Virus record (IMG/VR): IMGVR_UViG_3300040815_002027 | Length of the DNA: 64,000 bases | Origin: a virus | Direction: 5' to 3' (one strand) | In this document: piece after piece, positions 22,011 to 42,725 of the stretch | Layout: each line of letters starts with the position of its first letter | Position numbering within the stretch: the stretch's first letter is position 1 | Translations under genes and position numbers: made by a program | The notes under the pieces: generated by a model | Databases searched by the model: none | Seen by the model: only the letters and a program-made list of their open reading frames with translations | What the model was told of the DNA's origin: nothing

Positions 22011-22026
22011 AAGGTTTGTAGATTTA
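21995..22026 (+). promoter_or_regulatory. Bacteroidota-type promoter for the tracrRNA/array
   Basis: TTTG (21995) - 20 nt - TAGATTTA (22019), one mismatch to TAnnTTTG. Confidence 0.5.
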
Positions 22027-22029
22027 CGA

Positions 22030-22245
22030 TCTAAGTAAGTTCATTGAAATAATCGCCCGTGTGTAGCGGGTTTAAAGGCTTGCAGATATAGCGTCAACCC
22101 CTTCTTTGCTACGCAAGTGGTAAAGTCGCTCAAAATCTTTCTTTAAAATGAAAGCGAGAGGCCGAGAGGACGCTAGGCGGCTAATGTCGAAAGACATAAC
22201 GTGTGAGAACACACGAAATATCTTTTAAATTGTAGCCTTTGTATA
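22030..22245 (+). ncRNA. omegaRNA-derived tracrRNA-like scaffold with 3' anti-repeat
   Basis: Stems CCCG/CGGG (22056-70), TAGCGTC/GACGCTA (22089-95/22169-75), ATGTC-GAAA-GACAT (22184-97), CGTGTG/CACACG (22200-15); 22216-35 is 17/20 identical to the repeat reverse complement. Confidence 0.75.
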
Positions 22246-22250
22246 GTTAG

Positions 22251-22921
22251 GGTGTATACCACCACAATTTGAAAGGTGTTTACAACTAATGTTAGACAAA
22301 AAAATAAGTATAGCTTGGTATATAGCACCACAGTTTGAAAGGTATTTACAACGGAAACTTAGGTTACCTACTATCTGCTGAAGGTGTATACCACCACAGT
22401 TTGAAAGGTATTTACAACGAAAACTTAGGTTACCTACTATCTGCTGAAGGTGTATACCACCACATTTTGAAAGGTATTTACAACCAAATGAAGAACGATG
22501 CACAATAAGATGTAGGTGTATAGCACCACAATTTGAAAGGTGTTTACAACAGATCTAAAAGAAGAAGCAGAAAAACTTTCAGTGTATACCACCACAATTT
22601 GAAAGGTATTTACAACTAGTACCTATAGTATCAAAGTTAAATCAGAGGTGTATACCACCACAGTTTGAAAGGTATTTACAACTTATGTTATGAAGGTAGT
22701 ACTCCTTATATTGGTGTATACCACCACAATTTGAAAGGTATTTACAAACGGTGTCTCTTTAGCATCATAATTTTAAAACTGTTTACAACATAGCGACATC
22801 AATGTCGTTACCATAGATGGCTGTATACCACCACAATTTTAAAACTGTTTACAACATAGCGACATCAATGTCGTTACCATAGATGGCTGTATACCACCAC
22901 AATTTTAAAACTGTTTACAAC
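22251..22921 (+). CRISPR. CRISPR array: 11 repeats of 36 bp (consensus GGTGTATACCACCACAATTTGAAAGGTATTTACAAC), nine 30-bp spacers
   Basis: Repeats start at 22251, 22317, 22383, 22449, 22515, 22581, 22647, 22713, 22754 (degenerate), 22820, 22886; 66-bp period except a 5-bp gap at 22749-53. Confidence 0.96.
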
Positions 22922-22938
22922 ATTAAAAAATCAAAGTT

Positions 22939-23525: not shown

Positions 23526-24854
23526 ATGACACCAAAAGAAAAAGCAGAAGACCTTGTTAACCAATTCAGAATGATATTAATGGCTGAAGATACTGACTGT
23601 GGTAATGAAATACTTTGCACTTCGATAGCAATTAAGAATGCGTTAATATGTGCAGATGAAGTCTTGATGCGAGTGCCTCATAAAGACGTAGCTAATTGGA
23701 TTGCAGATGATTTGGCTGTTAAATATTGGATTGATGTAAAAATGGAATTAAGACAAATGTAATTATAAGAAAAAGCAAAAGAATTAATTGTAAGTATTAG
23801 TCACGATTCGTTTGTAGGAGCATCTTTGAACGCTTCACAAGTTAAGCACATTGTATTTATACATTTAAATAATATGATTGCTGAACTACAGAGTGTTGAG
23901 AATATTTATGAACTTGATATGAAGGGTACTATATCTTATTGGATGAGAGTTAAGGGAGAAGTAATAAAACTATAACCTAAATTACAAATATATGCTAGAA
24001 TCTATACTTGAAAATTACTATGAAGAAGAGTTCTTAAAAGCTGATGGATTTGATGATGCTATTATAGGAGTAGAAGAAAACTCTATGAGACTTATCTATT
24101 CAGTTAAAAAGTGTTTAGAGATCTTACAGACTGATATGGATGAGATAGATGCTATGGAGTACTTTACTTATAATGTAAGTGGAGCTTATATGGGAGAAAA
24201 GACTCCTATCTGGTGTTGTGATTTATTTGAAGATTAACTATAGACTATGAAAAAATTAATAAAAGAGGTACTTAGTAGTTTTGACTTTGAAAAAGTACAT
24301 AAGACTATGACATTTTTAAATTGGACTTGGTATTTTAAAGAAGTACCAAATTTACTTAAGTTGAAAAGTACAGCACAAGAATTGTTAGAAGAGGCTTGTG
24401 GTAGGTGTTTAGAAAGTAAAAAAACAAGTCGTGACATACCTTATATTATTATGACAGGTGGGTTTAGAGTAGAGGCATACCCTAACAAAAAGAGAACAAA
24501 GATTAAAAAGTTAAAATTAGACTTTATATTAACTACATCTTTTGATTATAGATGATGAATATTTAATAAAATTTCGACATAACTTATATTAAGCAAAAAA
24601 TTATGAGTAAAGACAAAAACATTGTGTTGGCATTTAATATTATCAATGCAGTTAGGGATAATAATTGGGAGGAAATGTTGAAATTATTTCCAGAGGGTGT
24701 AGAGCATAGAACGTATAAATACGATAGCATAGAATGTTTTACAGATTGGGAACATTACCAAGATTATGCAAGATATGTAGCACCTGCACGAGATATAATG
24801 AAAGAAAAATGTCTGGACAAAGCACTTGAGTGTCTTAATGTGTATGATAAGTAA
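23526..24854 (+). CDS. Small hypothetical phage genes (23526, 23992, 24247, 24603)
   Basis: MTPKEKAEDL and LKADGFDDAIIG starts are typical of aquatic-phage small proteins. Confidence 0.55.
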
Positions 24855-24872
24855 TTCAAAAAATCTATACAA

Positions 24873-25490
24873 ATGAATACAGTAGAGTTGATTGGGTATT
24901 ATGGTAGTGATTTAACCCACGCACAAAGTGCCTGGACCAGTACAAGTAGAGATTTGAGTGATGAGAAGTTATCGAGAGTTCCTGCCCTTCTTAAAATGTT
25001 GGCAGAAAATGGACATCATACTCCGTTTGAAAAAAGTACACTACACTTTTTAGTTACTGTCGACCAGGCATCTCATATCCATTTATTAAAACATCGTATA
25101 GGTGTGAGCATCAATGGGGAGAGTGCAAGGTATAAAGAACTTAAAGAAGATAAAACATATATACCTCAAGACTTTCCAAAAGAATGGCAAGGTAAGTTAG
25201 AGGTGTTTTCTCAAGCATCAAACAACTTATACCATAAGTGCCTGGAAGAACTTACGCCAATACTTGGTAGGAAAAGAGCAAAGGAATCAGCAAGATTTTT
25301 TAAGACATTTAATAGTCAGATTACTATGGATGTTTCTTTTAATTGGAGAAGTTTTTACCACTTCTTATCTTTAAGAAATAAACCTGATGCTCAAAAAGAA
25401 ATACAAGAGATTGCACAGCAGATGTTAGATTTGGTTCTTGATATAGAAGGCAATCCATTTAAAAATACGATTATAGCTTTTGGGTTATAA
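24873..25490 (+). CDS. thyX: Flavin-dependent thymidylate synthase
   Basis: GHHTPFE; KHR..SINGESARY variant of RHRx7SxR; NWRS..FL.LR...AQKEI. Confidence 0.9.
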   Translation: MNTVELIGYYGSDLTHAQSAWTSTSRDLSDEKLSRVPALLKMLAENGHHTPFEKSTLHFLVTVDQASHIHLLKHRIGVSINGESARYKELKEDKTYIPQDFPKEWQGKLEVFSQASNNLYHKCLEELTPILGRKRAKESARFFKTFNSQITMDVSFNWRSFYHFLSLRNKPDAQKEIQEIAQQMLDLVLDIEGNPFKNTIIAFGL

Positions 25491-25544
25491 CCCTAAACTT
25501 ATACTTAGACTTAAAAGTTTTTAGGGGTATAACCATAAAAATAC

Positions 25545-25671
25545 AACAAGGAGGTGAGTACGCTTTAGTTGAGAGGTAGAGTGGATTAATTGCCGAAAAA
25601 GGGTTTGTAGTAGGTAGACGTTCCTCATTGCACTCAACAAGAAACCCTGAAACACCCAAAGCCTCCTTGTT
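25545..25671. ncRNA. Candidate structured RNA, possibly pseudoknotted
   Basis: 10-bp closing stem AACAAGGAGG/CCTCCTTGTT; crossing pairs GTTGAG/CTCAAC and AGGGTTT/AAACCCT. Confidence 0.4.
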
Positions 25672-25705
25672 TTTTGTTTACTATATTTATATATAAAGTA
25701 AAGAT

Positions 25706-26248
25706 ATGAAAGATTCGAGAAAGCTTTTAGCAACCATTGCAAAGGGATATTTGAGTGAAGAATTAAATCATAATATAGATGGGATAATAGCATATCATAG
25801 AAGCCCCAAAAAATTTTATGATTTTAAATTGTCAAATGTTAGTTCTGACAGTAATAGACAGAGATATGGGTGGGGGTTATATTTTTCAAACAGTATTCCA
25901 AATACGCAATATGGTGATTATTTATATCAAGTAAGTCTTTTTAAAAATAAGAAACAGTATGTTTTAATTGATTTAAAACAACCAGTTGAAGGACTTATAG
26001 TTAATAGGATTGTAGAAGCACTTAATCATTATAACAAAAAATCTGATGAAGTTGTTGAGTTTGCTTATAATGGATTTTTGTTTTATAAAACGTTATCAAG
26101 AATTTTAGGTGGTGATAAAAACGCATCTTTGTTTTTATCTAAAAATGGTATAGATGGGTTACTAAATAAAATAACTAAAAATTGGCACGATTATATATTA
26201 TTCAATGACGATAATATAATAATTGATGAGATTAAATATGACCCATAA
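25706..26248 (+). CDS. ADP-ribosyltransferase-like (PolyVal-type) domain with MKDSRK leader
   Basis: AYHRSP..F, YGWGLYFS, GIDG. Confidence 0.55.
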   Translation: MKDSRKLLATIAKGYLSEELNHNIDGIIAYHRSPKKFYDFKLSNVSSDSNRQRYGWGLYFSNSIPNTQYGDYLYQVSLFKNKKQYVLIDLKQPVEGLIVNRIVEALNHYNKKSDEVVEFAYNGFLFYKTLSRILGGDKNASLFLSKNGIDGLLNKITKNWHDYILFNDDNIIIDEIKYDP

Positions 26249-26376
26249 AAATAAAACAAAAAGAATGTTACGATGAAAATTAATACGAAGATGAAACGTA
26301 GCATTGCATATAACTGTTTGTTAATCCAATATGCTTCTGGCTATGTTTTGCAACTATTTATTAATAAAGTAAAGGT

Positions 26377-26871
26377 ATGAAAGATTCGAGAAAGCTTTTA
26401 GTAACCATTGCAAGAGGGTATTTAAATGAAAATATTGAAGATTATTCAAAATGGAAACGTAAAAATGTAACTTTGCGTGGAATGAAAGAATTAGGTAAAG
26501 CAAATGAAGTATATGGTTCTTTTGGAAAAGGATTATATACAGTACCTTTAAGTAATAAAGCAATGGCAAAACAATATGGTAAAATATATTTTGTTGTAAA
26601 TGGGATACCAAGAAAACCAAAAATTGTTGATTCATTAAATAATGCTGAATTGTTAAGACAAAAATTAATTAATGATTTTTGTAAAAAACATAACGAAGAT
26701 TATAGTCCTCGTTTTTTTGAATCAAATACAACTATGGAAGATGAAATGTTAAAGTTGGGTTATGATGGTCTTATAATAAAAGGTAGAGAGATGGTTAACT
26801 ACACCCCAAAGGATATTAAATATTTTAAAAATGAAAATGATTTACAACGTTACTATGAAGCACTTTCATAG
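26377..26871 (+). CDS. ART-like domain with MKDSRK leader
   Basis: LRG, FGKGLYT, GYDGLII..EMV. Confidence 0.5.
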   Translation: MKDSRKLLVTIARGYLNENIEDYSKWKRKNVTLRGMKELGKANEVYGSFGKGLYTVPLSNKAMAKQYGKIYFVVNGIPRKPKIVDSLNNAELLRQKLINDFCKKHNEDYSPRFFESNTTMEDEMLKLGYDGLIIKGREMVNYTPKDIKYFKNENDLQRYYEALS

Positions 26872-26949
26872 TATTGGTGCTAAATTATTACTTAACCCAA
26901 TCTCTAAAAGCATCTATTTCGATGCCTTTAAAAATTAAATAAAAAAGTT

Positions 26950-27537
26950 ATGAAAATAGTAGAAAACACAGTTACAGCCATTATGGTTATTTTTGTTTTG
27001 GTATTTCTTTATTTCTTTATGTCTGCCCAAAAAAGTGTGGGAGAAGAACCTAAAACAGAACAAGTCTCTCACGATGTCATTCTAAATTCTGTGCGAGAAG
27101 TAATCTCCCTAACAGTAATAGAAGCAAACTTTACAGAGATATATACTAAAGAAGACTATTGGAAGTTAGATCTATCTCCTTTCAGAAAGAAGATGGTAGT
27201 TAAAGTAAAAGCTAATGTAGGTATAGGGTATGATCTAAATGAGTTATATATAGATGTAGATAGAGAATCTAAAACTATATTAGTATTAAGAATGCCTTCT
27301 CCCAAACTTTTGTATATAGATGATACATTGGAGTATTTTGATATATCTGAAGGATATTTTAATTGGTTTGACCCAGGAGATTACACAGAGATAGACAGAG
27401 AGACAAGAGATAAGATAGAGTCTATGGTAACTAATAGTAGTCTTTTTACTGATGCAGACATAAAATTATTTGAAAATTTAAAAATAATTCGTAACTTAGC
27501 ATCCGAGATGGGATGGACAGTAGTTATAAAGGATTGA
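26950..27537 (+). CDS. DUF4230 family membrane-anchored protein
   Basis: N-terminal TM; KVKANVGIGYDL; MPSPKLL. Confidence 0.75.
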   Translation: MKIVENTVTAIMVIFVLVFLYFFMSAQKSVGEEPKTEQVSHDVILNSVREVISLTVIEANFTEIYTKEDYWKLDLSPFRKKMVVKVKANVGIGYDLNELYIDVDRESKTILVLRMPSPKLLYIDDTLEYFDISEGYFNWFDPGDYTEIDRETRDKIESMVTNSSLFTDADIKLFENLKIIRNLASEMGWTVVIKD

Positions 27538-27567
27538 TACTCTCGTTTATATTTATAGTAAAAGCTA

Positions 27568-28062
27568 ATGAAACTTACAAAACTTTTAGAGACAGTTAGG
27601 GAAGATTTCGTAAATGAAGATATTAACCGTGATAAGTCAAGGAAAGTGTTGTTTGTTGATGGACACGGGAAACAAATTGTTTACGATGATGGTGCTTTTA
27701 GGATTGCTGTTGATGATAAAGATGATGCACTATATGTAACTTTATGGCATAAAGAAGATGTGAAAGGTAAAGAGTATTGGGTTAAACGTGGGTACATAGA
27801 TGCTTGGAAGAGTAAAATGAACTTTAAAGATAGAAGTGGTACTTATTTATCTATTCGTTCAATAGAAATTGAGAATAAATATAGAAATAAGGGGTACGGC
27901 ACAAAGTTATACAAAGCTCTATTTGATTTTTCAGCAAATGATGTTAAAGGTGTTTATTCTTACTTACCAAATAGGGTTAATAAAAAACAAGTGCCTAAAA
28001 TATATAATAAATTAGGTGCTATTACTGATGGTGATTACCAATTTATTGAGTTTAGTAATTAG
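27568..28062 (+). CDS. GNAT acetyltransferase with MKLTKLLE leader
   Basis: IENKYRNKGYGTKLY acetyl-CoA motif A. Confidence 0.75.
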   Translation: MKLTKLLETVREDFVNEDINRDKSRKVLFVDGHGKQIVYDDGAFRIAVDDKDDALYVTLWHKEDVKGKEYWVKRGYIDAWKSKMNFKDRSGTYLSIRSIEIENKYRNKGYGTKLYKALFDFSANDVKGVYSYLPNRVNKKQVPKIYNKLGAITDGDYQFIEFSN

Positions 28063-28110
28063 TGATAAAACAAAAGTATTTAAAATATTAATTAATTAAA
28101 AGTTACAAAA

Positions 28111-31100
28111 ATGAATTACAAAGGTTTTGATGTACAGATTGAGATTAAGCAGTACAAAAATGGGGGAGATGCTATCTATCTAATAGATAAGCAGGACCAT
28201 TCACCAGTAGCAGTAGCAACAAGTTGGATTGAAGGTTTAGAACCTGATGAGTTAGCCATTAAAGATTATAGTGAGAATGAAGGTATATATAGATGGTTAG
28301 TAGACAATAATATTGTTACTCCATCCGTTAGAATGCTTTATGGATTTCCTATTTGTAAATTAGTTAACAATTAAATAAAAAAAGTTATGGAAAAGCAAAT
28401 TAAAAACTTAATCGAATTAGCAGAGCAGTATTACCAATATGCCATAGAAGAAGATTTCCCAAGTGGACACACCTGGTTACAGACAGACTATGGGGAGGTT
28501 GGGGTATACTTATCCACTTACAGTAGAAGAGATTACTCAGTGAAATTCGATGGCGAAGTGGAGGTTGCAGGATATGCAAATAGAATAGCAATGGGATTTA
28601 CTGCCACTTCAGAAACTTTAGAGAAATTATATAATAACTTTTCAAAATATCTTAAAACTGAAAAAGATAAGATTCAAGAACAAGTAGCAGTCCAAAGAGC
28701 TGAGAAGATAAAAAATTTGGAAGAAGAACTATCAAGATTAAAAAACTTATGAATAGGTTCACTTTCTTAAAAGTCTATAACTCTCCATTTAAGCCATTCC
28801 TACCTAAGTTATATATAGGTAGGATGACTATTGGAGTACCTTACTTTTATTCTCGTAAAAAAGTAGGGTTTGACCTTGTAGGCTTAGGTTATAAGACAAA
28901 GTGGTCAGATACTGACTATAGGTTCGAGTATAATCCTATATGGTCATTTACATTTTATAAGTGGCAGATTGCTTTAATCTTTGCACCTATTGAATGTAAC
29001 TATTATTGGCAGGCTTGGTTGTACTACTTTTACAATACTAAAGGTACGAAGGAAGAAAGGATAAGAGAATGTAAGAAGGAGTATCCACTTAAAATTACAG
29101 TAAGTGGTGTAAAGGATGGGAGGAGGTATGAGTATAGTTACGATGCGTATGATAAAGTTTTAAAATCGTAAAAATTATGGAAAACGAAGAAGTAAAAAAC
29201 AACGAAAAATATTCAATACCAATCTATGAGAATGGTGTGAAAACTGAATGGACTATTGATGGTGTAATAGGTGATGAAAAATATTTTGAGTTGTTGAAAT
29301 ATGGAAATGGTAAAGATTTACCTGATATGGTTAATGTTGGCGTAAAGAAATAATTTTTATATTTTATAACTTTTTGTTAATTCAAGTTTTTAAACATAAA
29401 ATTATGGAAAGAAATATAAGCGAAACACCCGAAAAATGGGTAATATTAAAACTACCAAATAATTACTATAAAGTTTTTGGAACTTGGGCTGGTGGTTATT
29501 TATATGGTGACAGATATAGATTAAATTCTGGAATTAGTAAAGTAGAACAAGACGAAAACTTTTATTATTTTATTGGATTTAGTGGAAGTTGCTATAAGTG
29601 TCACAAAAAAGGATATGGAACAGCGACATCTTACGGGTTAGGTGTTTTAAATAAAATAATAGAACAAGGAAACGGACAGATTGAGTTAATGGAAGATGCT
29701 GACGATTGGATAAATGTGGTATAACTATTTATTAATTAAAGTTTTAAACCTATCGAAATCGATGCCTTTAATAAATTACTAACAATTAAATTTTTAAAAT
29801 TATGAAAATGTATTATTACAATCCAAACAATTATAGTGCTGAATTTTTCGTTATGGCTGAAAACAAAACAAAAGCACATGAATACTTATTAAAACATTTA
29901 GAAAATAAGATTGTATCTGAAAGTTGCTATGCTGAGATGTATCAAGAAGATTTAGAAATATGGAAAAAAGTAAATCCCTTGGATATTAAAACATTTCCAG
30001 GTAAATATACTTTGGATGAACATGAAATTGGTTCAGTTATCGAATCTGAAATTGCTTAGTGGTTGCACTTTCGTAGCATTGTGTATAACTATTTGTTAAT
30101 CCAAGGTTTTAAACCCATCGAAATTAAGGGGTTTGTAAATTAAAAACAGATAAAATGGAATTAAAAAGAGTTATTGAAACATTAGAAAAACATCAAGAGT
30201 GGAGGCGTGACCAAAACGTACCACCAAAAGTAGAAATGCAAAGCCCTATTGAAATAGGAGCAGCTATTGATTATGCAATAAGCGAGTTAAAAAAATTGCG
30301 TTTATCTGATGTTGTAAAATCGTTGCCTAAAGACACAGACGGATGCAATATAAACAGTGTTAGCAACTATTTTCACTGCCAAAGAGAAGAAGAGATGGAA
30401 AGTAAATGTCAAACACAATGTGAACACTGTAAAGAATATTACAAACCATTAGAGCAATAATATTACTGCCAACGTTTTGGCTATGTGCCGTATGACGATA
30501 GGAATATGGACATATAGCCGTTGTTGTGCATAGTAGCGGATTAATTAACTAAAGTTTGAATAAATGAAATTACAATTCTTAACAATCGAAATTGATGGAA
30601 AATGCTTTGACTTACCAAAGGATATGCAGATTCCGCAGAAAGGTAGCACTGTATTTATTGAGGGTAAAACAGGGATAGTTGAAAACATTCACTACCATAT
30701 AGTAGACGGAAAAGTACACATGATAAGCATTTTTGCTACGAAAGGGTAGCTATTATGCACAACTATTTGTTAATCCAAGTTATTAAGATAAAAAACAATA
30801 AAAGATGAAAAAGTACAGAATTACAATTAGAACCAGTTTTGGGTCATTTGAGATTGATGACATTGAAGCACAAGATGAGGATGAGGCATTTGATAAGGCT
30901 TGTGAAGAGGCTAAAAAAGAAATTGATTGTGCAAAACTGGATGAAGTTTATGAGTACGATTCTTAATGGTGCATAACGGTACAGTATAACAGTAGTGCGG
31001 ATAATTAAAAACAATAATATGGATAAGTACACGAAAAAAGCGGTGTTTAGTTACTTAAAGAAGTATGACCACATAGCAAACGAAGAGGACTTTATAGAAG

Positions 31101-32625
31101 TTACTGAATGGAAAAACGGTGAAGGATTTGATGTAGAGATAGTTGGAAAATTAAGTACAAGGTTTCAATTAACTTGGGGTGAATACACCGCTTTGAAGAA
31201 GTTGGTTAAAAAACTTGATGGTTAGCATTACTGTTATACATTGTTGTAGTGTCGTTTTAATGCACTACAACGGCTACAGGTATGGCAATGTAATTTTACG
31301 GATTTGAAACACGGAAATTAATTATGGACAAGATAGATAGATTAAAGCAATTACTTCTGACACACAGAACAGAAGATATAAGCAAATTAACATTTGAAGA
31401 AAGGATTGATTTTGACGATGCGTTTGCACAAGAGATAGTAAAATTATTTGCTATACCTGATGTTATAGAGCCGAAGGGAAAGTTAAAATGCGAATGTAAA
31501 GATGAGTGGATGGAAGATGTTATTTATGTTCAGTGTAGTAAGTGTGGTGAAAAGTACTAACGCATTTTAATTCTCTATAACTATTTGTTAATCCAAGTTA
31601 TAAAAATAAGGAACATTGGCAAATAAAAATAAAGACCTTAAATTAGTAAAAGTTGGTACTGTTCGAAAACATATGGATGCGCATTTTAGAGATGAAATCA
31701 GCTACTCTGAAGCAGTTAATAGAATAAATAAAGAAGCAAATAAAAATATGAGAAATATGAAAGCAAAATTAACATTTATACTGCCAGAAGATAGGTACGA
31801 ATATGACATGGCAGTCAATGGAAGCAATTGGCATCACGTTGCTTGGGAGATGTACCAATACTTGAGAGGCAAAACTAAATATGCACCAGATGATGCTCAT
31901 GAGGAGTACACTCAAGCAATGTCTGATTGTAAGGATAAGTTGTTTGAAATTATGCGAGAAAACGGAGTAGATTTTGACTTATGAGAAAATCAAAGTTTGA
32001 CATATCATCACAAAAACCTTTGAGTTTTAGAATCAAAGAGTTTTTTAGAAGCCTACTTTTTTGGAAAGGTAGACAGAAAGGTGTGATTCATACCCGTAAT
32101 ATTATATTGGATGATTTCCGATATAAGGATGATTTCCGATACATCTTTTTTCCAAAAGATTTTGCTGAGAAATATGGATATTTGGGTACTTCTGTTTGGA
32201 ATGAGGATAGTGTTTATTTCAAAGCACTTTATCCACTTGTTCTTGCATTAGATTATGAAGCAAAACCAAAATGGTGTCCAAGATGGTTTCTTCGTTTTCT
32301 TGATGTATTTGGTTCTGATAGGTCAGTCGTTAGAGTTAGGAATTTGAGATTGCACAATTTACAAACAAAACTAACCAAAGGAATTGCATTTGTAGATTGG
32401 AAAACAAAATGGAGTGATTACGATTTAAGAATCAGTATCCATGCACCTTCTCACTTACAAGATTTGGCTTCAGCCATTGAAGAAAAGTTTTATTCTAAAG
32501 GTAGACAGAAAGAGTTAGTAAAACAAATCAAACAGTTAGACCCAAATGCCTCTATAATATGGGGGAGTATAAAACGGTTAGAAGAACAATTAGAGAAGTT
32601 AGAAAATAAGGTTGTAGACTTATAA
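28111..32625 (+). CDS. Run of about 14 small hypothetical genes, many in cassette-like units (includes 29177-29353 and 30805-30966, absent from ORF track)
   Basis: Same-strand short ORFs, several ending at AAC-type boundary sites. Confidence 0.6.
30464..30530. repeat. attC-like hairpin
   Basis: TGCCAAC-GTTTT-GGCTATGTGCCGTAT..ATATGGCATATAGCC-GTT-GTTGTGC. Confidence 0.6.
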
Positions 32626-32661
32626 TACCTATAAATAAGGTTGTAGACTTATAATACCTAT
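32604..32661 (+). repeat. Perfect 29-bp tandem duplication
   Basis: AAATAAGGTTGTAGACTTATAATACCTAT x2 across the stop of 31981..32625. Confidence 0.9.
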
Positions 32662-32714
32662 AATTGTGAATAACTACGATAAGTTTATTGTATATTTATA
32701 TATAAACAGAATTA

Positions 32715-33419
32715 ATGAAAGACTTAAGAAAATTCTTATCTACAACTGCGAAACAGTATTTGAATGAACAAGCATCATTAGAAAATGTGAAACTAAATGA
32801 TAATTTTTGGGAATGGTTTGGTAATAGTAAAGTTGTTGATAAAGATGGGAATCCAATGATTTGTTATCATGGAACACCAAAAGGTGGTTTTACTGAATTT
32901 AAACCAAAAACTGGTTATAAAGGTAAATCAAAACAACAAGTTGATTTAGGTTCGCATTTTTCAATTGATAAAGAATATGCTTCAGGATATGCTGGTGATA
33001 AAAAAACATCAAAAGTTTATGAATCATTTTTGAGAATAGAAAATCCGTTATATACTAATCAAATGTTTTATAGAGAGGATAATGAAAAATTATTTCTCAA
33101 TTATTTGAATTTTATAACCAAAACATTCAAATTAAAATTAGGTGGTGATTACTACTATAACAAAAATGGAGATAAGCAAAATGAACCACAAAATATTATG
33201 CTCAATAGTTTTTTGATTGATAAAATACCATCAAATAAACTTTATAATAGTTTAATAGAATTTGGTTTTGATGGTGTTTTTCACGAACCATATAATAGGG
33301 AGGGGTTGAGTCATTTTAAAAAACATCCATTGGCATACATAATTATAGAACCGAACCAAGTTAAATCAATTGATAATGATGGTAGTTGGGATGTAAATGA
33401 TAATAATATTTATTCTTAA
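32715..33419 (+). CDS. ART-PolyVal-like protein with MKDLRKF..YLNE leader
   Basis: FWEWFGNSKVVDKDGNPMICYHGT; GFDGV; EPNQVKSIDNDGSWD. Confidence 0.7.
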   Translation: MKDLRKFLSTTAKQYLNEQASLENVKLNDNFWEWFGNSKVVDKDGNPMICYHGTPKGGFTEFKPKTGYKGKSKQQVDLGSHFSIDKEYASGYAGDKKTSKVYESFLRIENPLYTNQMFYREDNEKLFLNYLNFITKTFKLKLGGDYYYNKNGDKQNEPQNIMLNSFLIDKIPSNKLYNSLIEFGFDGVFHEPYNREGLSHFKKHPLAYIIIEPNQVKSIDNDGSWDVNDNNIYS

Positions 33420-33550
33420 TTTTGTGTGGTGGAGAAAAAGTAAAACAAAAAGATTATAATCACGAAACTTAATACGAAGCACAAACGTAGCATTGCATAT
33501 AACTAATCGCTATCCGCATATTTATGGTGGATATACAACAAAAACAAATT

Positions 33551-34294
33551 ATGAAAACAGTTATATTAGGAGACATCCACGGAACAAATTATTGGCAAAC
33601 TATAATAAACTTCGAGAAACCTGATAGAGTTGTGTTCGTAGGAGATTATTTTGATTCTTTTGATATTCCTTACGATAAGCAGATAGATAACTTCCTGGAC
33701 CTCATAGAGTACAAGGAAAAAAGTGGGGGAGAAGTCATACTACTAATAGGTAACCACGACTATCATTATCTACCCTATATAAACGACACATATACATCAG
33801 GCTATCAATCTAAATATGCTCATTTAATAAAACAAGTAGTAGAAACTAACTTACACCATCTACAGATAGCCTATCAGTTTGATGACTTTCTAATAACACA
33901 TGCAGGAGTAAGTGAAGAGTTTATGGATAATAACTTTGATAAGTGGTCTGAGGAAACTATAGTAGAACATCTTAATGATTTATTTAAATATAAACCTAAT
34001 AAGTTTTTATTTAATGGTCTTGACCCTTATGGAGACGATACTTACCAGTCTCCTATATGGATAAGACCTAAAAGTCTTATGAGAGCAAACAAGACATCAG
34101 AACTAAAGAGAAGGTATGTTCAAGTAGTAGGGCATACTCAAGTAAAGGAAATTGATACGAAGGGAGGTGCTACGGGAGGAAGGTATTATTTTATCGACTG
34201 CTTATCTACGAGTGGGCAGTATATGATCGTAGATGAAGATTCGTTTATTAATTTTAAAAGTTATAGAGATTATGATAAAGAAGATACTGAGTAA
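33551..34294 (+). CDS. Metallophosphoesterase (paralog of 20001..20717)
   Basis: GDIHG, GDYFD, GNHD, THAG, GHT; shared KG.AT.GR.YF.D. Confidence 0.9.
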   Translation: MKTVILGDIHGTNYWQTIINFEKPDRVVFVGDYFDSFDIPYDKQIDNFLDLIEYKEKSGGEVILLIGNHDYHYLPYINDTYTSGYQSKYAHLIKQVVETNLHHLQIAYQFDDFLITHAGVSEEFMDNNFDKWSEETIVEHLNDLFKYKPNKFLFNGLDPYGDDTYQSPIWIRPKSLMRANKTSELKRRYVQVVGHTQVKEIDTKGGATGGRYYFIDCLSTSGQYMIVDEDSFINFKSYRDYDKEDTE

Positions 34295-35063
34295 AGTTTG
34301 GAATTCAAAAATAATTTGTATATTGTTGCACACCAGGATAAAGATAAAGGACTTTCCTTATGAGATAGATCCTGTAACACAACGGCCCTACGGTAGGTAT
34401 AAGTGTAAAATTTGCGGGAGAAGATACCTTGCCAATAATAGATTCGATTGGTATCAAATAGATATAAAGAAGAAACATAAATAAACTAATTATAGAATGA
34501 ACATAGGCGTACTAAAACATAACGAGACTGGATGGTACATCGAAACTCCAGATAGAGACTATAAACTACATCCTGAAGAAGAGAAGGTCTGTAACATGTA
34601 TGTAGACTATTCTATAGACTGGATAGGAAAAACTGTAGAGTTCCGTATAAAGAAAGATAAAAAAATATCCTATGCTATTACAGAAAAGTTTGTAAAATAG
34701 AAAATAAAGATTTATATTAGCGTTTATGAAACACATTAAGCAAGCGTTACGACTATTACTACTATGTTGGCTTATTGTATTTCTATTATTTATATTATTA
34801 ATTAACTTAAATTAAAAGGTTATGGCATTATTTTTTTTCGGTTTGGGAGCAGGAGTTTCTCTGTCGTTGGTTTTATCGTTTATTGGTATAAGGTCTTTAA
34901 TTTTATCTAAAAAGAACAGCTCTTCTATAGAGGTGTTAGAGAATGACATTAGTTACAAGCTATCTATGATGCAAAAGCAGATAGCCAGACTTAAGTAAGA
35001 TTTTATGTGGGGACAAACTGTCCCCATTTGTTTTGAACTTTAATTTTAATAAAATAATTAACT

Positions 35064-35552
35064 ATGAATTTATTTTTTTTCCTTGTTGGTGTTAGCTGTT
35101 GCTTAATAGTTCTTCTCATTATCAACGCTGTTATTTTGCGAAACGATATAAATAGACTTAGGAAATCAGCATACAGAATGGAGAAGATGATTGAAGATGT
35201 TAATAATTCTTCGGACACTATGGCTATAACGTTAGAGAATAGACAAGATCGTTTAGCAGAAAGTCTCTCTCGCAGAATAGATGATTTGATTGCTACTGTA
35301 GATGCTAATGAAAAAGATCTCTACAGAGCCTTATCGAACAAAGAGTGTGACATCGATACCAGATTTAATTCTAGTATAAATGGTATTTACACTTCTTTAA
35401 AAGATATAGAAAATGTTGTTGATAACAACTCCAAAGAGGTTTATAACTCTTTAGATAAGTTAGAAGACAGGTTTGATAATAGGATAGATACTGCTATGAA
35501 AATCTTTTATGAAGATTTACAAAGTCTAGAAGGTTCTATTGATAAGGCTTAA
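35064..35552 (+). CDS. TM-anchored coiled-coil protein
   Basis: N-terminal hydrophobic helix; heptad repeats. Confidence 0.55.
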   Translation: MNLFFFLVGVSCCLIVLLIINAVILRNDINRLRKSAYRMEKMIEDVNNSSDTMAITLENRQDRLAESLSRRIDDLIATVDANEKDLYRALSNKECDIDTRFNSSINGIYTSLKDIENVVDNNSKEVYNSLDKLEDRFDNRIDTAMKIFYEDLQSLEGSIDKA

Positions 35553-37212
35553 TACTCATGCTTTTTTTATACGTGGGAGGCTAGTCCTCCTACTTTTTAA
35601 ATTTAAATTATGATTAATACGTTACAATACTATTCTGAAAAATCTAAGTTTTTAGTATTCAAATACCATAGAGTAATTTTTGATGATCTACTTTTTAAAG
35701 GCTGGTCTGCGCATAATAATTATAGAGAGGTTTTATCTTTATACATCTATCTTATGAATGTTTACTTTAGAGTCCCTTTAAACTTATTAGCATCTACTCT
35801 TCCGATTGAGGAGTGTAGGTGTAAACTATATCTGGATAGTATTAAGATTTCATATATAACTAAAATATCTGAAAAATTAGACAATTATTCTGAACAGTAT
35901 GATATAACTTTAGCTAAGTTGTTTAAGTAGCCCAAACAAACTCTTCGCATCTTAGTTTGTTTTTAAATGTTTTTTTGTGAAAGGGTGAGGTAAAGTTCTC
36001 ACCCTATTTAGAATCCAAAAAAGTTGCCGAGAAGCCCTAATGAAAAATATACATACACTACAACTACATAATAAACTAATAATAGATAATAACACTTCAG
36101 TACTAAAAGTACCCAATGGACTAATATATACTATAAAGACAATAGAAACTATAACTAATACTAAAGATAATTCTAAATACACTATAACAAATACTAATAT
36201 AGTGTATGTACCTTATACTAATAACACTGATACTATAACAAATAAGGATACAGATAATAAACCTAACCCAGATATAGATCTACCAGATAGTCAATACACT
36301 ATAATATAACTTTATTATGTTTATCAAACTAAAATGATTGTTAAATTAAATACATACACTATAACTAATAGGTTATTTTATAGTATATATACACTATAAT
36401 ATATAACTACAAAGTATACGTTAGTCTTTCGTTTTTACAGGCTTCTCACTTAGGTGGGAGGCCTTTTTATTTATAACCCTAAAGGGTGGAGGTGGGAAGG
36501 ATTACAAAACGCATTCTAAAGGTTTACAAAATGTTTATCAAACTGGGGTGTCAAATTGGGGAGGTAGGTGCATATTTGCCCTGTCTTTTTCTCGACCCTC
36601 CATTTTTTTCCTACCAAATTTTATTTGGCCTGGGCTGGCCATCCTTCCTGGTTGATCTTCACCTGCCTGGTGGGTGGAGGACCTGGTCTGGTAGGAAATG
36701 CTTATAAGGGTCTACCTCATATCTATTTGTTTTGCGTGTTTGGTCAACCAGGGTCTGGTTGGAATAACTTATTTTTGAAAAAAGTTGGGAAAATATTTGG
36801 AGATGTGGGTGAGGTTATATTATCTTTGTGGAACTTTAAGCAAGGGGGGAGTCCTTCCTCCCGTTTCCATGTTTTAAGTTTTAGTTGATTAATGATTTTG
36901 GGGCCTCCTCTTTAACTAGGGGAGGCTTTCTTTTTATAACTCCAGAAGCTTATAAGGATGTTTCTGTATACTGGATTGTTTGCGTGTTTGACCAACCAGG
37001 CCTGGCAGGCTGGTAAGTTTGGTGTGAAGTTAGTAGGCGGCTTGGATCCTTAAGTTCAGTATAAAGTTAAACTACCTATTATATAAGGTGTAGTATACTA
37101 TATACACTATATACTATAAAGTTATTTTTTTTTAAAAAAGTTGCAGCGAGGTATTGTGTAATTAAAAACTTACTTATATATTTGCGACATCGTTAATCAC
37201 TAAAATAGAAAT

Positions 37213-40200
37213 ATGATGAAAAAGATCAGGGTAACAAATGAAGAACTATTCTACGGTAAGAATGTAGAAGTATTTACTGAGAACTTAAATGTAGGTACTA
37301 TTAGAGGTAGGTTTATTGGTACTGGACATTTACGCATTGTATGGGATGGGGACTCTATGGTAAGTTCTGGTGAGTTTGGGAGGGATGATTTTGAGGAGGA
37401 CTTTGGGTTTGTGTTTGAGGTGGAGAAAAATCCTAAAGAGGAGCAGTACTTTATACTGAGGGATATCCAGAGGTCTGGGTATAATGTAGTAACGTGTGGA
37501 GATTGTGGCACGGTTAATCTTGTTAGGTTTTCTGATGGAGACTTTTACAAGTGCCATAAATGTGGGTTTGATGATGACAGTAGTTCTTTTCCAGATTTAT
37601 TTTATTAATTAATTTAAAACTTAAATATTATGACAAAGACAAAGATGTGTTCATTGGTAAAGTTAAACAACCTTATCTACAACTTTACCAAAGTTATTCC
37701 TTCCCTAAAGGAGCAGTACCTTCACTTTCATTATGATATATCTACGGATACAATATCTCTATTAGAGATTAATGGTGGAAAGCCTATGGAGGGAGATGAT
37801 ATGTCTATAAGGTTTTCTGAGGAGGGTGATTTGTATGAGATTACTGTAACTGGGGATAAGTCCTTTTGTAATACGGTAGGTGATGTATTAAATCATATAG
37901 AGAATTGGTTTGCATAATAACTTGTTTTATATCTGGAATTGGTGATGAACCTCTCCCCAACTTTTGGTGGAGGGGTTTTTTTATGCTTATAAGGATCTAC
38001 CTTATATCTATTTGTTTTGCGTGTTTGCCCAACCAGGGAAGGTCTGGCCTGGTTAGTTTACTTTGAAGTTATTATAGAGCTGGTTAGTTTACTATAAACT
38101 TATTATATGTAGATCTACTTTAAAGTTATTTTTTTTGAAAAAAGTTGGGGTGAGGTATTGCGTAATTAAAAACTTACCTATATATTTGCAACATCATTAA
38201 TCATTAAAACAAAAAATTATGAAAGCTTTTGTAGTATTAATCCTAGTTGAAGGTTCATTAGTAGAGCCAAGAAAGACTTGTGAATTCCTTGAAGGAACTA
38301 AATTTGATATCGGAGGTTCAGTTCAAGCCACATCTACTGACGTATTGAACAAGGTTCTGTTTGAATTAGGTCTAAATGATTCTGATGGCATAGGAGTGCT
38401 TTCAATTTCAGACTTTATGGACAGGTTTAATGACCAAGAATTAAACCCAGATGACTACTTTATGTCTTATGTGTATGCTTAGTATTGTGTAATTAAAAAC
38501 TTTCCCCTATATTTGCAATCATTAATTAACTTTAAACTAAACAATATGGAAAACTTACAAATGATAAATATGTTAGACTTTCTGTTTGATATGTTAGAGC
38601 ATTACCCAGACTTCCCAAATTATTCAGAAGCAAAACAGTTATCTGTTCTTACAAAGCATATAAACTATCAAGATGGTCATACTAAATTAAATTTACAGTA
38701 TGATTATATAGGAGAAGCATCAGATGATTACTATAAAGTTATATTTGATATGAGTGATTTTGGTGAGGTATTTAAGTATGCAGATGAAGAGGTTTTATCT
38801 GAAATAAAAAGTAGTGAAGAGTTTAAGAGTAATAATAAGTATTTTATGTTTAATGGTAAAGGTATAGTATCTAATGATGATATTACTGTGTTAGGTTTTG
38901 ACTCTAAAAAGATTGCACAGTACATATTAGAAGAGTATCATAATTTTATATGTTAGCATAGTTTCGGATAGTATGTTTGAGCCTCTCCGCCAGATTTTGG
39001 TTGGAGGGGTTTTTTTATGCTTATAAGGATCTACCTTATACCTATCTGTTTTGCGTGTTTGCCCAACAGAGCTGGCTGATCTGTAAGTTTACTTTGAAGT
39101 TATTATATGTACTGGGTAGTTTACTGTAAACTTATTATATATAGGTTTAATAAAAAGTTATTTTTTTTTCAAAAAAGTTTGCGGAGAAGAAATAAAAAAC
39201 TATATTTGCAGAACATTAATCATTAAAACATAACAAACATGAACAATTACGATTTCTTTTTATTCACAAAACTAGTGGATGTAAGATTCCCCAACAATAA
39301 GGATTCTTACGATGAGTTGTACGATACCTTATCTATGGCTTATAACTCTTTTCTATCAAGTAAGTATAACGACTTTGATAAAGGAGTTTATGAGTGTATA
39401 GAAGAATACTTGGAAGATGAGGACTTACCATTCAGACAATGTACAAAGACTGGTAGTTACATTGTAGAGGGGTATATGGTCAATCACAATTTAATGTCGT
39501 ACGGAGATATCGAATACTATGCTTCAGAAGAAGATTTAGTAGAAAGATTGAAGGAAACTTATCCTGAAATTTCAGATAAGGAAGAACTACTGGCTACTGC
39601 CTATGAAGATGAGTATTACTGTTGGACACAATTTAATAATTAACTTTAAACTAAAACTATTATGGAAGATTTCAAATTAATCAATGTACTGGAACTGGCT
39701 TCTGAACTAGCAGATATGAAAGTTAGAGAAATTATGGTAAACTTTTCAGATATTTACATTGAAGATAGTGATGGAAGTACAAGGTATACTGAAGAGGCTC
39801 AAGACCTATTTAACGAGTGGTACGATTCCTACACTGAACTAATACAATCTATTTAACTTTAAACTAAAACTATTATGGACAAATTACTTAAATCTGAAAT
39901 TGACAAAGCAAAAAAACTTTTAAAAGACAATGGCTACCAAACGTATAACTTGTGGCACATTGACGATGTATTGGATGAAGAAGGGCTTTTAGAGGATGGC
40001 GATAAGATGGAGATACTGGAAGAAGCACTCACAAATGAATGGGTTATAGAACAAATTTTTTTTATTATAAACGACATTAGAGATAGGTATATTGAAGAAG
40101 TTAAAAACAAAAAAGCATGAGAAGGAAGTATTTAAATAGAGTAACAGAAAGTGATTTTATAAACTGGTACTTTAGCGATTCAGAAGACTTGACCGAATTT

Positions 40201-40368
40201 GCAAAAGGTATTATTGATGAACTGGCAGAGACTGGTAAATGTAACTTGACTGTAAAGAAAGTATTTGATAACTGTGGGTATATACCCTCACACATTTGCG
40301 AGTCTAAACTGGATGGGGAAGAATACCAACCGCACGAAGTTAGACTGGTAAAAGATATTTCTAATTAA
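37213..40368 (+). CDS. Small acidic early-type hypothetical genes (37213 with Zn ribbon, 37630, 38219, 38546, 39239, 39662, 39875, 40117)
   Basis: Each unit preceded by a TATATTTG promoter; CGDCG/CHKCG in 37213. Confidence 0.65.
39178..39208 (+). promoter_or_regulatory. Bacteroidota sigma-A promoter (near-identical copies at 40638, 41607, 42664, 43697)
   Basis: TTTG-N19-TATATTTG matches the -33/-7 consensus. Confidence 0.85.
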
Positions 40369-40702
40369 AAGTAAAAAAGTTAGGGGAGAGTGTATAATAA
40401 TTAAAAACTTTCCCCTATATTTGCAGAACATTAATTAACCATAAAAACTTAAAGTTATGAAAGTAGCAAGACCCAAGACAGAAAAATGGCATAATGACCA
40501 AGAAGGTGATTGCAGAAAACCTATTGATAGAGATGGAAGTAAAAAATCATATTATAAAAAAGGATGGTGGAAAAGATATGATAGAAAGAAGTTTTTCCGC
40601 AATATTAACAAGTGGTTTGGATAATTACCGCTAAAAGTTTGCGGAGAAGAAATAAAAAACTATATTTGCAGAACATTAATTAACAACTAAAAATTTAAAA
40701 CT

Positions 40703-41362: not shown

Positions 41363-41670
41363 TAGTAATAGGTTATGTTTTAGAGTGCCTCTCCCCCGCT
41401 TTTGGAGGAGGGGTTTTTTTGTGCTTATAAGGATGATCCGATATACCTACTAGTTTGCGTGTTGTGTGAACTGGTTGAACGTATTTGTAAGTTTATTTTA
41501 AAGTTATTGTACATACTATATGTTTACTTTTAAGTTATTATATGTATTATATGTTTACTGTAAAGTTATTCTGTTTACTTTTAATTTATTTTTTTTTGTA
41601 GAAAAGTTTGCGGAGAAGAAACAAAAAACTATATTTGCAGAACATTAATCAACATTAAAAACTTAAAGTT

Positions 41671-42391: not shown

Positions 42392-42512
42392 AGATATATT
42401 CACTCACTCTGTATAAAGGTGCTACATTAATTTGTAGTGCCTTTTTTTATGCTTATAAGGATGATCCTTTATACCTATTAGTTTGCGTGTTTGATGAAGT
42501 GACCAGTCAGTA

Positions 42513-42636
42513 TATATGTTTATTGTAAAGTTATTCTGTATACTATATGTTTACTTTTAAGTTATTCTGTATACTATATGTTTACTTTTAAGTTATTCTG
42601 TATACTATATGTTTACTTTTAAGTTATTCTGTATAC
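42513..42636 (+). repeat. Four tandem 31-bp repeats TATATGTTTACTTTTAAGTTATTCTGTATAC
   Basis: Copies at 42513, 42544, 42575, 42606; related arrays near 38055, 39085, 41490, 43570, 44450. Confidence 0.9.
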
Positions 42637-42725
42637 TTTTAAGTTATTTTTTTTGCAGAAAAGTTTGCGGTGATGAAATAAAAAACTATATTTGCAGAAC
42701 ATTAATCATTCTAAAACAACACAAT

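What the first reader, a model, noticed from the sequence alone, without database searches (positions are those of the whole stretch)
30155..31560. ORFs read through cassette junctions, giving combinatorial fusion proteins
Seen: 31324..31560 crosses the arm'-GTT junction as KLFAIPDVIEPK. 30155..30460 has the analogous TTGCGTTTATCTG-AT-GTT junction read as KLRLSDVVKSL. Both encode D-V at GAT GTT and are followed by a short Cys-rich module. Inference: recombination at G|TT keeps frame and swaps C-terminal modules, so the system would shuffle protein domains as well as genes.
Basis: partly seen in the sequence, partly recalled or inferred. Interest (0 to 1): 0.7.

Follow-up and report, generated by a model that had tools for sequence, protein, structure and literature searches.

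The report
Phage genes spliced at hairpin joints
Two small genes of an uncultured Bacteroidota-type phage are each assembled from separately swappable, hairpin-bounded DNA pieces whose joint lies inside the gene in a fixed reading frame, so related phages carry dozens of different pairings of protein front and back halves.

Summary
ORF A (30155-30460) and ORF B (31324-31560) each read through a GAT GTT joint, and Cys-rich tails follow.

The proposed test came out positive. In metagenomes the front half of A is joined to more than 30 unrelated back halves, and the front half of B to about 10. A's Cys module sits behind more than 100 unrelated front halves, including B's.

The joint is a nucleic-acid element, not a protein motif:
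- The junction peptide (IPDV, IHNV, IPNV, LGSV) is the in-frame translation of the right arm of a sense-strand hairpin.
- The left arm of that hairpin lies in the 5'UTR.
- The arms covary, with six double compensatory changes in B's relatives.

Back halves are GTT...AAC pieces with their own covarying arms. The TAA stop is often built into the 3' arm.

Similarity between phages breaks exactly at these GTT/AAC ends.

The anatomy is integron- or attC-like. However, no integrase, other recombinase or reverse transcriptase is encoded in the 85.5-kb record, which is about 47% complete. Both hairpin feet act as break points, and cargo also sits inside hairpin loops. The enzymology is therefore open.

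The scan has met the same kind of thing on other phage DNA (e1-5374805, e1-5354608, e1-5319330).

I rate it a new variant of a known kind.

The parts
30155..30460 (+). ORF A, 101 aa: a composite gene made of N module A, a short middle piece and a Cys module
30155..30313 (+). N module A (residues 1-53), a two-helix hairpin. It also occurs alone as a 55-58 aa protein in other phages
30296..30313 (+). Joint 1 of ORF A, read as LRLSDV and ending in GTT. In a second group of relatives this joint is the right arm of a hairpin of the common family, with its left arm upstream of the start
30311..30358 (+). Middle piece VVKSLPKDTDGCNINS. It is shared with 82-aa relatives that carry a different tail, and similarity to them ends after the TGC codon at about 30346
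30359..30473 (+). Cys-module piece, GTT...AAC, 115 nt (1 mod 3). It starts at the in-frame GTT AGC (V69 S70). Its arms are degenerate here but form perfect 9-nt arms in L089 and L090
30471..30525 (+). Empty AAC...GTT hairpin, the only copy of the conserved hairpin family in the window
30523..30763 (+). GTT...AAC piece carrying gene 30564-30749. Its 15-bp arms have one G:T
30976..31245 (+). AAC...GTT piece carrying gene 31019-31225, with a helix of 21 pairs. A relative (L081) diverges exactly at 30978
31243..31271 (+). Empty GTT...AAC mini-hairpin
31269..31464 (+). AAC...GTT piece carrying the 5'UTR, start codon and N module of ORF B. It is shared at about 97% identity, as a unit and with exactly these ends, with phages that show no other DNA similarity in 27-34 kb
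31272..31299 (+). Left arm of the ORF B N-module hairpin, in the 5'UTR
31438..31464 (+). Right arm of the same hairpin, translated as VKLFAIPDV. It covaries with the left arm in L083, L086 and L088
31324..31560 (+). ORF B, 78 aa: a composite gene made of N module B plus a CxC...CxxC tail
31462..31581 (+). GTT...AAC piece carrying the C module of ORF B. The arms are 31462-31492 and 31561-31581 (9 + 10 bp with a bulge)
31579..31599 (+). Conserved 21-nt AAC...GTT motif. There are 7 copies in the window, including 30087-30108 and 30761-30781, and relatives regain similarity exactly here

Best explanation
ORF A and ORF B are composite genes built from separately exchangeable DNA pieces. Each piece is closed by a pair of complementary arms that fold on the sense strand and end in the fixed trinucleotides AAC and GTT.

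One class (AAC...GTT) is a conserved hairpin. It can be empty (about 50 nt), or it can hold a 5'UTR, a start codon and a protein front half in its loop. Its right arm is then translated and gives the junction peptide (hydrophobic-x-I/L-x-x-V), and the closing GTT is the Val codon.

The other class (GTT...AAC) holds the back half. It opens in phase with GTT (often GTT AGC) and often closes with a TAA stop built into its 3' arm.

Because phase is fixed at both ends, any front piece can be joined to any back piece and still give one open frame.

Shown here:
- the anatomy of the pieces;
- the covariation of the arms;
- the fixed reading phase;
- the independent assortment of halves;
- breaks in similarity at the piece ends.

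Inferred: new joints are made by a strand- and structure-specific reaction on folded single-stranded DNA at the hairpin feet. This would resemble integron attC recombination or HUH/IS200-type peel-and-paste. The enzyme would act in trans and is not encoded in the 85.5 kb at hand.

I put about 0.9 on the composite-gene and exchange picture, and about 0.4 on this particular enzymology.
For: Assortment:
- N module A is 75-92% identical across 143 proteins that carry about 35 or more unrelated tails. N module B has 14 proteins with 10 tails.
- The Cys module of ORF A has 287 clusters at 50% identity with over 100 unrelated partners. It also occurs as a free-standing gene, and behind N module B (P0102).

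Nucleic-acid nature of the joint:
- In B's relatives, three double compensatory changes in L086 and three in L083 keep the 5'UTR-to-codon pairing while the peptide changes from IPDV to IPNV or IHNV. Single changes in L088 give only G:T.
- Two further unrelated front halves (L089, L090) sit in the same kind of hairpin, with 12 and about 23 pairs across the whole module.

Back-half pieces:
- The 5' arm matches its own 3' end better than the 3' ends of 17 other modules. None of 20000 permutations reached the observed value.
- The triplet next to GTT AGC covaries with the triplet before GCT AAC.
- The stop is TAA-C in 24 of 31 piece types, against 8% of ORFs in the genome.

Breaks in similarity:
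- Window 31269-31464 is the only DNA shared with L010-L016.
- L081 diverges at 30978 and rejoins at 31576.
- L005 homology starts at 30086.
- Ten or more pairs break right after the AAC of the 3' arm, followed by at least 7 unrelated continuations.

Structure:
- The hairpin family has 7 of 15 pairs with compensatory changes, and G:U is kept at fixed columns.
- All 31 model hits lie on the gene strand.
- The sense strand folds 71 kcal/mol better than the antisense strand over 30060-31620, and the fold recovers the arms.

Precedent: attC clusters without an integrase occur on virulent phages, including a Polaribacter phage, and are recombined by IntI1 (PMC9892861).
Against: - No tyrosine or serine recombinase, Y1 transposase, reverse transcriptase, RecA, RecT or Erf is found in the record, though only about 47% of the genome is held.
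- In the A family the breaks are spread from -13 to +36 nt around GTT. This fits crossing-over anywhere in a conserved linker.
- The same arms hold unrelated cargo, which homologous double crossovers in the arms would also give.
- Back-half pieces and the hairpin that follows them are not inherited together. An integron that cuts only at G|TT would not give this.
- The better-folding strand is the sense strand, and G:U-type pairs fit an RNA role as well as a DNA role.
- Perfect GTT..AAC repeats are not enriched genome-wide.
Confidence: 0.45

Rival explanations
1. PeSL-like route. The hairpins are primarily RNA elements of the polycistronic early transcript, serving processing, stability or RNase III-type sites. 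Pieces are swapped by the phage's ordinary recombination or copy-choice, using the short conserved arms (6-25 nt) as homology. The fixed GTT/AAC ends are simply the conserved closing pairs of the RNA helices.
For: - G:U pairs are kept at fixed columns, and single changes give G:T, not A:C.
- All 31 hairpins are co-oriented with the genes.
- Breaks are spread within the conserved linker.
- The same arms surround unrelated cargo.
- No recombinase gene is seen.
- PeSL elements of T4-type phages set the precedent: recombination between conserved stem-loop motifs, without a dedicated enzyme, makes mini-circles and swaps ORFans (PMC2839356, PMC4122927).
Against: - Unrelated sequences are joined at the very same trinucleotide in many independent combinations. 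In some of these the only shared letters are 3-6 nt, which is very short for homology-driven exchange.
- A helix that starts in mid-ORF and ends at the stop codon has no obvious RNA role, and RNase III cutting there would sever the fused message.
- The hairpins have no promoter or U-tract.
- No RecA, RecT or Erf is seen in the record.
Confidence: 0.35
2. True integron cassette array (CALIN). Exchange occurs only at G|TT of attC sites and is carried out by a host or phage IntI.
For: - AAC and GTT are invariant at the hairpin feet (12 of 12).
- The arms GCTAAC/GTTAGC are one letter from the attC core consensus as I recall it (own knowledge).
- The layout of unpaired spacer plus inner stem resembles the R box, spacer and L box.
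- Phage CALINs are published and are active with IntI1 (PMC9892861).
Against: - No intI in 85.5 kb.
- Breaks at the AAC foot are as common as at GTT, and a back-half piece and the following hairpin separate freely.
- Genes with their own start sit inside the hairpin loop.
- Cargo is half a protein, not a whole promoterless gene.
- The sense strand, not the bottom strand, is the structured one.
Confidence: 0.1
3. The joint is a protein-level feature, such as a conserved linker, a protease site or a leader-core boundary as in RiPP precursors or polymorphic toxins. The DNA conservation would merely follow from that.
For: The architecture of a conserved front half plus hypervariable, often Cys-rich tails resembles leader/core peptides and CdiA/Rhs-type C-terminal swapping (own knowledge). 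The motif L-x-[LI]-x-x-V recurs.
Against: - The peptide changes (IPDV, IHNV, IPNV, MPDV, LGSV) exactly as needed to keep pairing with an untranslated upstream arm.
- The same arm sequence occurs untranslated in empty intergenic hairpins.
- The 3' arm lies at or beyond the stop codon.
- Front halves exist alone.
Confidence: 0.03
4. Invertible segments (shufflon, or Mu G-segment type). The inverted repeats let an invertase flip the piece to present an alternative tail.
For: Inverted repeats lie inside the ORF and at its end, and both piece ends have the same phase. The reverse strand is open in a few pieces (L020, L023 and L030 families).
Against: - No cargo is ever found in the opposite orientation among 76 loci.
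- Most reverse frames carry stops.
- There is no invertase gene.
Confidence: 0.02
5. Artefact. The N/C combinations are chimeric metagenome assemblies at a repeated sequence, and the arm matches in the window are chance.
For: Most relatives come from short metagenomic contigs. Genome-wide counts of perfect repeats are at chance.
Against: - Many combinations recur on several contigs and samples: P0103 on 23 contigs, P0070 on 18, P0088 on 14.
- Frames stay open.
- Arms match their own partner and covary.
- Syntenic long contigs L005 and L081 show clean replacements.
Confidence: 0.03

Closest known systems
Integron attC sites, cassette arrays and CALINs, including CALINs on virulent phages (PMC9892861)
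   Same: - Imperfect single-strand hairpins closed by AAC...GTT.
- An unpaired spacer plus an inner stem.
- Cargo flanked by GTT-arm ... arm'-AAC.
- All elements co-oriented.
- Conserved sites around unrelated cargo.
- Mosaic breaks at the core.
   Different: - No integrase is seen.
- Both feet act as break points.
- Cargo, with its start codon, can sit inside the hairpin loop.
- The core lies inside ORFs in a fixed phase, so half-proteins rather than whole genes are shuffled.
- The sense strand is the structured one.
PeSL mobile regulatory cassettes of T4-type phages (Arbiol et al. 2010, PMC2839356; Comeau et al. 2014, PMC4122927)
   Same: - Conserved stem-loop elements between small orphan genes in a plastic region of a large virulent phage.
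- Breakpoints of insertions and replacements lie at the elements.
- No dedicated recombinase is known.
   Different: - PeSLs are direct repeats made of an early promoter plus a terminator, and they are strictly intergenic.
- Here there is no promoter or U-tract.
- The arms flank the cargo as inverted repeats.
- The arms are translated.
Phage Mu G / P1 C invertible segments and the R64 shufflon (own knowledge)
   Same: An ORF reads through a recombination site, and a constant front half is joined in frame to alternative back halves.
   Different: Those systems work by inversion within one genome by a resident invertase. Here there are no inverted copies and no invertase, and the variants are spread across a phage population.
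Rickettsia palindromic elements and other MITEs inserted in frame (own knowledge; review PMC10969869 listed, not read)
   Same: Palindromic repeat elements are translated as part of host proteins.
   Different: Those add a passive peptide insert to an existing gene. Here the element is the joint at which whole modules are exchanged.
IS200/IS605 and REP/RAYT single-strand hairpin elements (own knowledge)
   Same: - Strand-specific imperfect hairpins with wobble pairs.
- Short fixed sequences at the cleavage points on both sides.
- Orientation bias.
- The phage carries a TnpB whose array repeats end like the 3' arms.
   Different: No Y1 transposase is found, and no guide-sequence pairing was tested. 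This is a resemblance only.

Membership tests
Integron / CALIN | Integron integrase (tyrosine recombinase) next to the array. Not required for a CALIN | tested here: not met
   PF00589 has no match in the 85.5-kb record. The record is about 47% complete.
Integron / CALIN | attC: an imperfect hairpin of 57-141 nt with core sites ...AAC and GTT... at its feet | tested here: inconclusive
   AAC and GTT are invariant in 12 of 12 hairpins of 45-57 nt. The flanking letters differ from the RYYY/RRRY consensus by one position (own knowledge of the consensus).
Integron / CALIN | Score above threshold with an attC covariance model (IntegronFinder or HattCI) | not testable with these tools
   That model is not at hand. 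Rfam has no hit.
Integron / CALIN | A cassette is one promoterless whole gene followed by its attC, with exchange only at G|TT | tested here: not met
   Cargo is half an ORF, or sits in the hairpin loop with its own start. Breaks occur at the AAC foot as well.
Integron / CALIN | Recombination by IntI on the folded bottom strand | not testable with these tools
   In silico, the sense strand is the better folded.
PeSL (T4-type) | Sigma-70-like early promoter plus terminator stem-loop in one intergenic motif | tested here: not met
   Promoter-like and terminator-like sites are not enriched in 29300-31700. The hairpins lack a T-run.
PeSL (T4-type) | Indel and replacement breakpoints between related phages lie at the motif | tested here: met
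Invertible segment / shufflon | The segment is found in both orientations, and an invertase gene is present | tested here: not met
   No minus-strand matches of any cargo. No PF00239 or PF00589.
IS200/IS605 or REP/RAYT | Y1 (HUH) transposase | tested here: not met
   PF01797 has no match. TnpB alone is present at 20724-22010.
Known RNA family (Rfam 15) | Match to a curated covariance model | tested here: not met
   Only chance-level hits in 24000-36000.
Known protein family for the modules | Pfam or PHROG match, or a solved fold | tested here: not met
   No Pfam or PHROG match for ORF A or ORF B. No PDB fold match. The Atlas gives only unnamed clusters.

The most novel reading that the evidence does not exclude
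Virulent phages of Bacteroidota carry a dedicated, strand-specific recombination system, served by an enzyme not yet identified. It treats every hairpin-closed piece as a movable unit, cutting at both the AAC and the GTT foot. It has evolved a fixed codon phase and a built-in stop, so that it routinely shuffles half-proteins. That would make it a natural domain-shuffling device, distinct from integrons, PeSLs and shufflons.
Probability: 0.3. Interest if true: 0.9.

Novelty: new variant of a known kind. Interest (0 to 1): 0.78.

Why it matters
If this holds, it shows that protein sequence at a domain boundary can be dictated by a nucleic-acid hairpin. It also shows that phages exchange not only genes but protein halves at standard, phase-locked joints. 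This would be a natural combinatorial library of small early proteins, probably host-takeover or anti-defence factors.

It makes an old idea, Botstein's modular evolution with linker sequences, testable at nucleotide resolution. It also offers a possible window on how integron-type cassettes arise.

In practice, it warns annotators that such small ORFs are chimeras whose halves must be classified separately.

Tried and rejected
- Direct comparison of ORF A with ORF B gave only a weak C-terminal match, so they are not paralogues.
- Megablast of 28-36 kb against GenBank phages found nothing.
- Genome-wide counting of perfect 9-bp GTT..AAC or AAC..GTT inverted repeats gave no enrichment over dinucleotide shuffles. 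I dropped this as a test.
- The inverton, dual-coding idea failed. Reverse frames are mostly closed and no inverted copies exist.
- A local hairpin in ORF A (30295-30313 with 30332-30349, 17 pairs in the MFE fold) is not kept in relatives whose left side differs. I treat it as unsupported.
- The 8+3-bp pairing of A's joint with 30145-30154 does not covary in the second group of relatives.
- A joint alignment of N and C fragments for folding was misaligned by MAFFT (A4) and was discarded. The modules were folded separately instead.
- Fold searches of both modules in the PDB found nothing. The Atlas search gave only unnamed clusters.
- The hairpin model finds only one empty copy in the window.
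- Searches for reverse transcriptase, RecA, RecT and Erf in the record were all negative.
Full report
**Setting**

The window is bases 3404-67403 of an 85.5-kb IMG/VR virus record, about 47% complete. It has 31% G+C, and all long ORFs lie on the + strand. It has no close relative among GenBank phages.

Its few recognisable genes are a TnpB, a glycosyltransferase, a subtilase and an ART-PolyVal protein. The promoter style at 36-44 kb fits a large phage of Bacteroidota. The finding lies in a run of small ORFs at 26-33 kb.

**Observation**

Both ORFs exist as described.
- ORF A (30155-30460, 101 aa) reads LRLSDV across 30296-30313, with GAT GTT at 30308-30313.
- ORF B (31324-31560, 78 aa) reads FAIPDV, with GAT GTT at 31459-31464.
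- Both continue into Cys-rich tails.
- Neither ORF has a Pfam or PHROG match.
- The two are not paralogues.

**The proposed test is positive**

For ORF A, 98 relatives keep residues 1-50 at 75-92% identity, but most match only 50-60% of the query. For ORF B the pattern is the same. Reading the sequences, and 64 further metagenomic loci fetched with their DNA, gives these counts:
- N module A is joined to roughly 35 or more unrelated tails among 143 proteins.
- N module B is joined to 10 tails among 14 proteins.
- N module A also occurs alone as a 55-58 aa protein (L064, L069, L078).

In the other direction:
- The tail of ORF A occurs behind six other front halves.
- A profile of its Cys core (C-x9-C-x3-C-x-H-C) finds 287 clusters at 50% identity.
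- Those clusters have over 100 unrelated partners. The core is sometimes at the N terminus, sometimes internal, and sometimes a free-standing gene.
- One member sits behind N module B (P0102, hhalign probability 96%).

**The joint is a nucleic-acid element**

Several lines of evidence show this.

First, phages L010-L016 share with the window only 31269-31464 within 27-34 kb, at about 97% identity. This shared unit begins exactly at an AAC and ends exactly at the GTT of Val47.

Second, the two ends of this unit are complementary. Stretch 31272-31299 in the 5'UTR pairs with 31438-31464, codons 39-47, over 25 pairs.

Third, this pairing is maintained by evolution:
- In L086, three positions have changed on both sides.
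- In L083, three others have changed on both sides.
- In L088, two single changes give G:T only.
- Meanwhile the peptide changes from IPDV to IPNV, IHNV or MPDV.

The peptide follows the helix, not the reverse.

Fourth, two unrelated front halves (L089, L090) lie in the same kind of hairpin, with 12 and about 23 pairs spanning the whole module. The front halves of P0013 and P0109 do so as well.

Fifth, the same arms occur untranslated as an empty hairpin of about 50 nt between genes:
- Twelve distinct copies align with AAC and GTT invariant.
- Seven of 15 pairs show compensatory double changes.
- G:U is kept at fixed columns.
- A covariance model finds 31 copies in 76 loci, all on the gene strand, and one in the window at 30471-30525.
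- Rfam has no such family.

Read in the phase where GTT is a codon, the right arms of empty hairpins give I-A-S-V, I-F-S-V and I-G-S-V. That is the junction motif. In a second group of N-module-A loci, the joint LRLGSV is the right arm of this family, and its left arm lies about 40 nt upstream of the start.

**Back halves are pieces of the complementary class**

Unrelated tails behind N module A open with GTT AGC and very often close with GC TAA C. This is the reverse complement of the opening, with the stop codon inside the arm. The next triplet covaries: TTT with AAA, AAT with ATT, GAA with TTC, GTT with AAC, AAC with GTT.

Supporting numbers:
- Across 18 distinct tails, the 5' arm matches its own 3' end better than any permuted assignment (0 of 20000).
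- The stop is TAA-C in 24 of 31 piece types, against 8% of ORFs in this genome.
- Mismatches within arms are G:T three times as often as A:C (12 against 4).

In the window:
- ORF B's tail is such a piece (31462-31581, arms 9 + 10 bp).
- Genes 30564 and 31019 are enclosed in the same way, by 15 and 21 pairs.
- A fold of the sense strand of 30060-31620 recovers these helices.
- That fold is 71 kcal/mol more stable than the antisense strand.

ORF A has two in-frame joints, V53 and V69. The Cys module starts at the second (GTT AGC at 30359). Its arms are degenerate here but are perfect 9-mers in L089 and L090.

**Breaks in similarity sit at the piece ends**

- A 98%-identical relative (L005) becomes similar exactly at the AAC of the 21-nt motif at 30087.
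- L081 keeps the Cys tail but has another front half. It diverges at 30978, the C of an AAC, and rejoins at 31576.
- Among loci that share a tail, similarity ends directly after the AAC of the 3' arm in ten or more different pairs. At least seven unrelated continuations follow.
- Similarity also ends directly after the GTT of the 21-nt motif.

Against a single cut site, the breaks within the N-A linker are spread from -13 to +36 nt. One reason is that many tails share further letters (AGC, TCGTT). Another is that a middle mini-piece (VVKSLPKDTDGC) is itself exchangeable.

**What it is not**

- It is not an inverton. No cargo is found inverted, and most reverse frames are closed.
- It is not a PeSL in the strict sense. 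There is no promoter or terminator signal, and the arms are inverted, not direct, repeats.
- It is not a peptide-level linker, given the covariation with untranslated arms.
- It is unlikely to be an assembly artefact. Combinations recur on many contigs, and arms match their own partners.

**Mechanism**

The layout equals that of an integron array: GTT-arm, cargo, arm'-AAC, hairpin, GTT. AAC/GTT cores, an unpaired spacer and an inner stem are all present. attC clusters without an integrase are known on virulent phages, including one infecting Polaribacter, and are substrates of IntI1 (PMC9892861).

Several features depart from integrons:
- No integrase, or any other recombinase, reverse transcriptase or strand-annealing protein, is in the half-genome at hand.
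- The AAC foot is a break point as often as the GTT foot, so a tail and the hairpin behind it separate freely.
- Genes with their own start codon lie inside the hairpin loop.
- The sense strand is the folded one.

I therefore commit only weakly, at about 0.4, to a structure- and strand-specific single-strand DNA reaction at both feet, of integron or HUH type and acting in trans.

The main rival, at about 0.35, is that the hairpins serve the transcript and that the pieces are exchanged by short-homology recombination, as proposed for PeSLs (PMC2839356).

The descriptive core stands at about 0.9 whichever enzyme is involved. That core is: composite genes, translated arms, fixed phase, a built-in stop and free assortment.

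**Function of the proteins**

This remains unknown.
- N module A folds as a two-helix hairpin (pLDDT 83).
- The Cys module folds as a small knot with four Cys and one His invariant, presumably metal-binding (pLDDT 75).
- Neither matches a solved structure.

**Relation to earlier notes of this scan**

First readers described the same tiling in this genome. Follow-ups on three other phage genomes reached a similar picture. I took from them only the lead to the CALIN paper. Everything above was tested here.

Noticed in passing
window 20724-22930: A TnpB gene (428 aa) is followed by a structured RNA-like stretch and an array of 36-nt repeats with spacers of about 30 nt. The repeats end in the same letters (..TTTACAAC) as several 3' arms of the GTT...AAC pieces. 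This hints at a possible link between the piece ends and an IS200/605-type right end.
   Followed up: partly
window 26314, 29370, 29725, 30089, 30763, 31581, 41966: A 21-nt motif that itself starts with AAC and ends with GTT occurs seven times, always just after a stop codon. Relatives regain or lose similarity exactly at it. It is not a Bacteroidota -7/-33 promoter by eye, and its role is unknown.
   Followed up: partly
window 36600-43800: Units of about 1 kb each carry a strong terminator-like hairpin, a palindromic CTTATAAG motif, 31-nt tandem repeats and a Bacteroidota-type promoter (TTTG ... TAnnTTTG). This looks like an early-gene island of another design.
   Followed up: no
P0003 (151 aa, metagenome): In one relative, the N-terminal part of the homologue of window ORF 31616-31984 is fused in frame to N module A plus the Cys tail. 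This is a three-part chimera joined at a different point (KAKL | IDILEKHQ).
   Followed up: no
P0001 (130 aa, metagenome): This relative carries a partial internal duplication of N module A, joined at a short shared peptide (PIEI). It is either a real recombinant or an assembly chimera.
   Followed up: no
window 30359-30460 and 287 protein clusters: The module F-[YH]-C-Q-R-x2-E-x4-C-x2-Q-C-x-H-C-K-E-Y-Y-K-P-L-E is a widespread, unnamed mini-domain of about 35 aa. It is found at N-terminal, C-terminal or internal positions of small proteins, in proteins of up to 519 aa. There is no Pfam family and no PDB fold match.
   Followed up: partly
window 25684-25759, 26355-26430, 32693-32768: Three genes (starting at 25706, 26377 and 32715) share a nearly identical upstream region and first 18 codons, then diverge. 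This is another case of shared heads on different bodies. The 32715 gene is absent from relative L005.
   Followed up: no
L039:654-764 and L044:2702-2786: The hairpin model also hits two copies with enlarged loops (111 and 85 nt). These may be intermediates between empty hairpins and gene-carrying ones.
   Followed up: no
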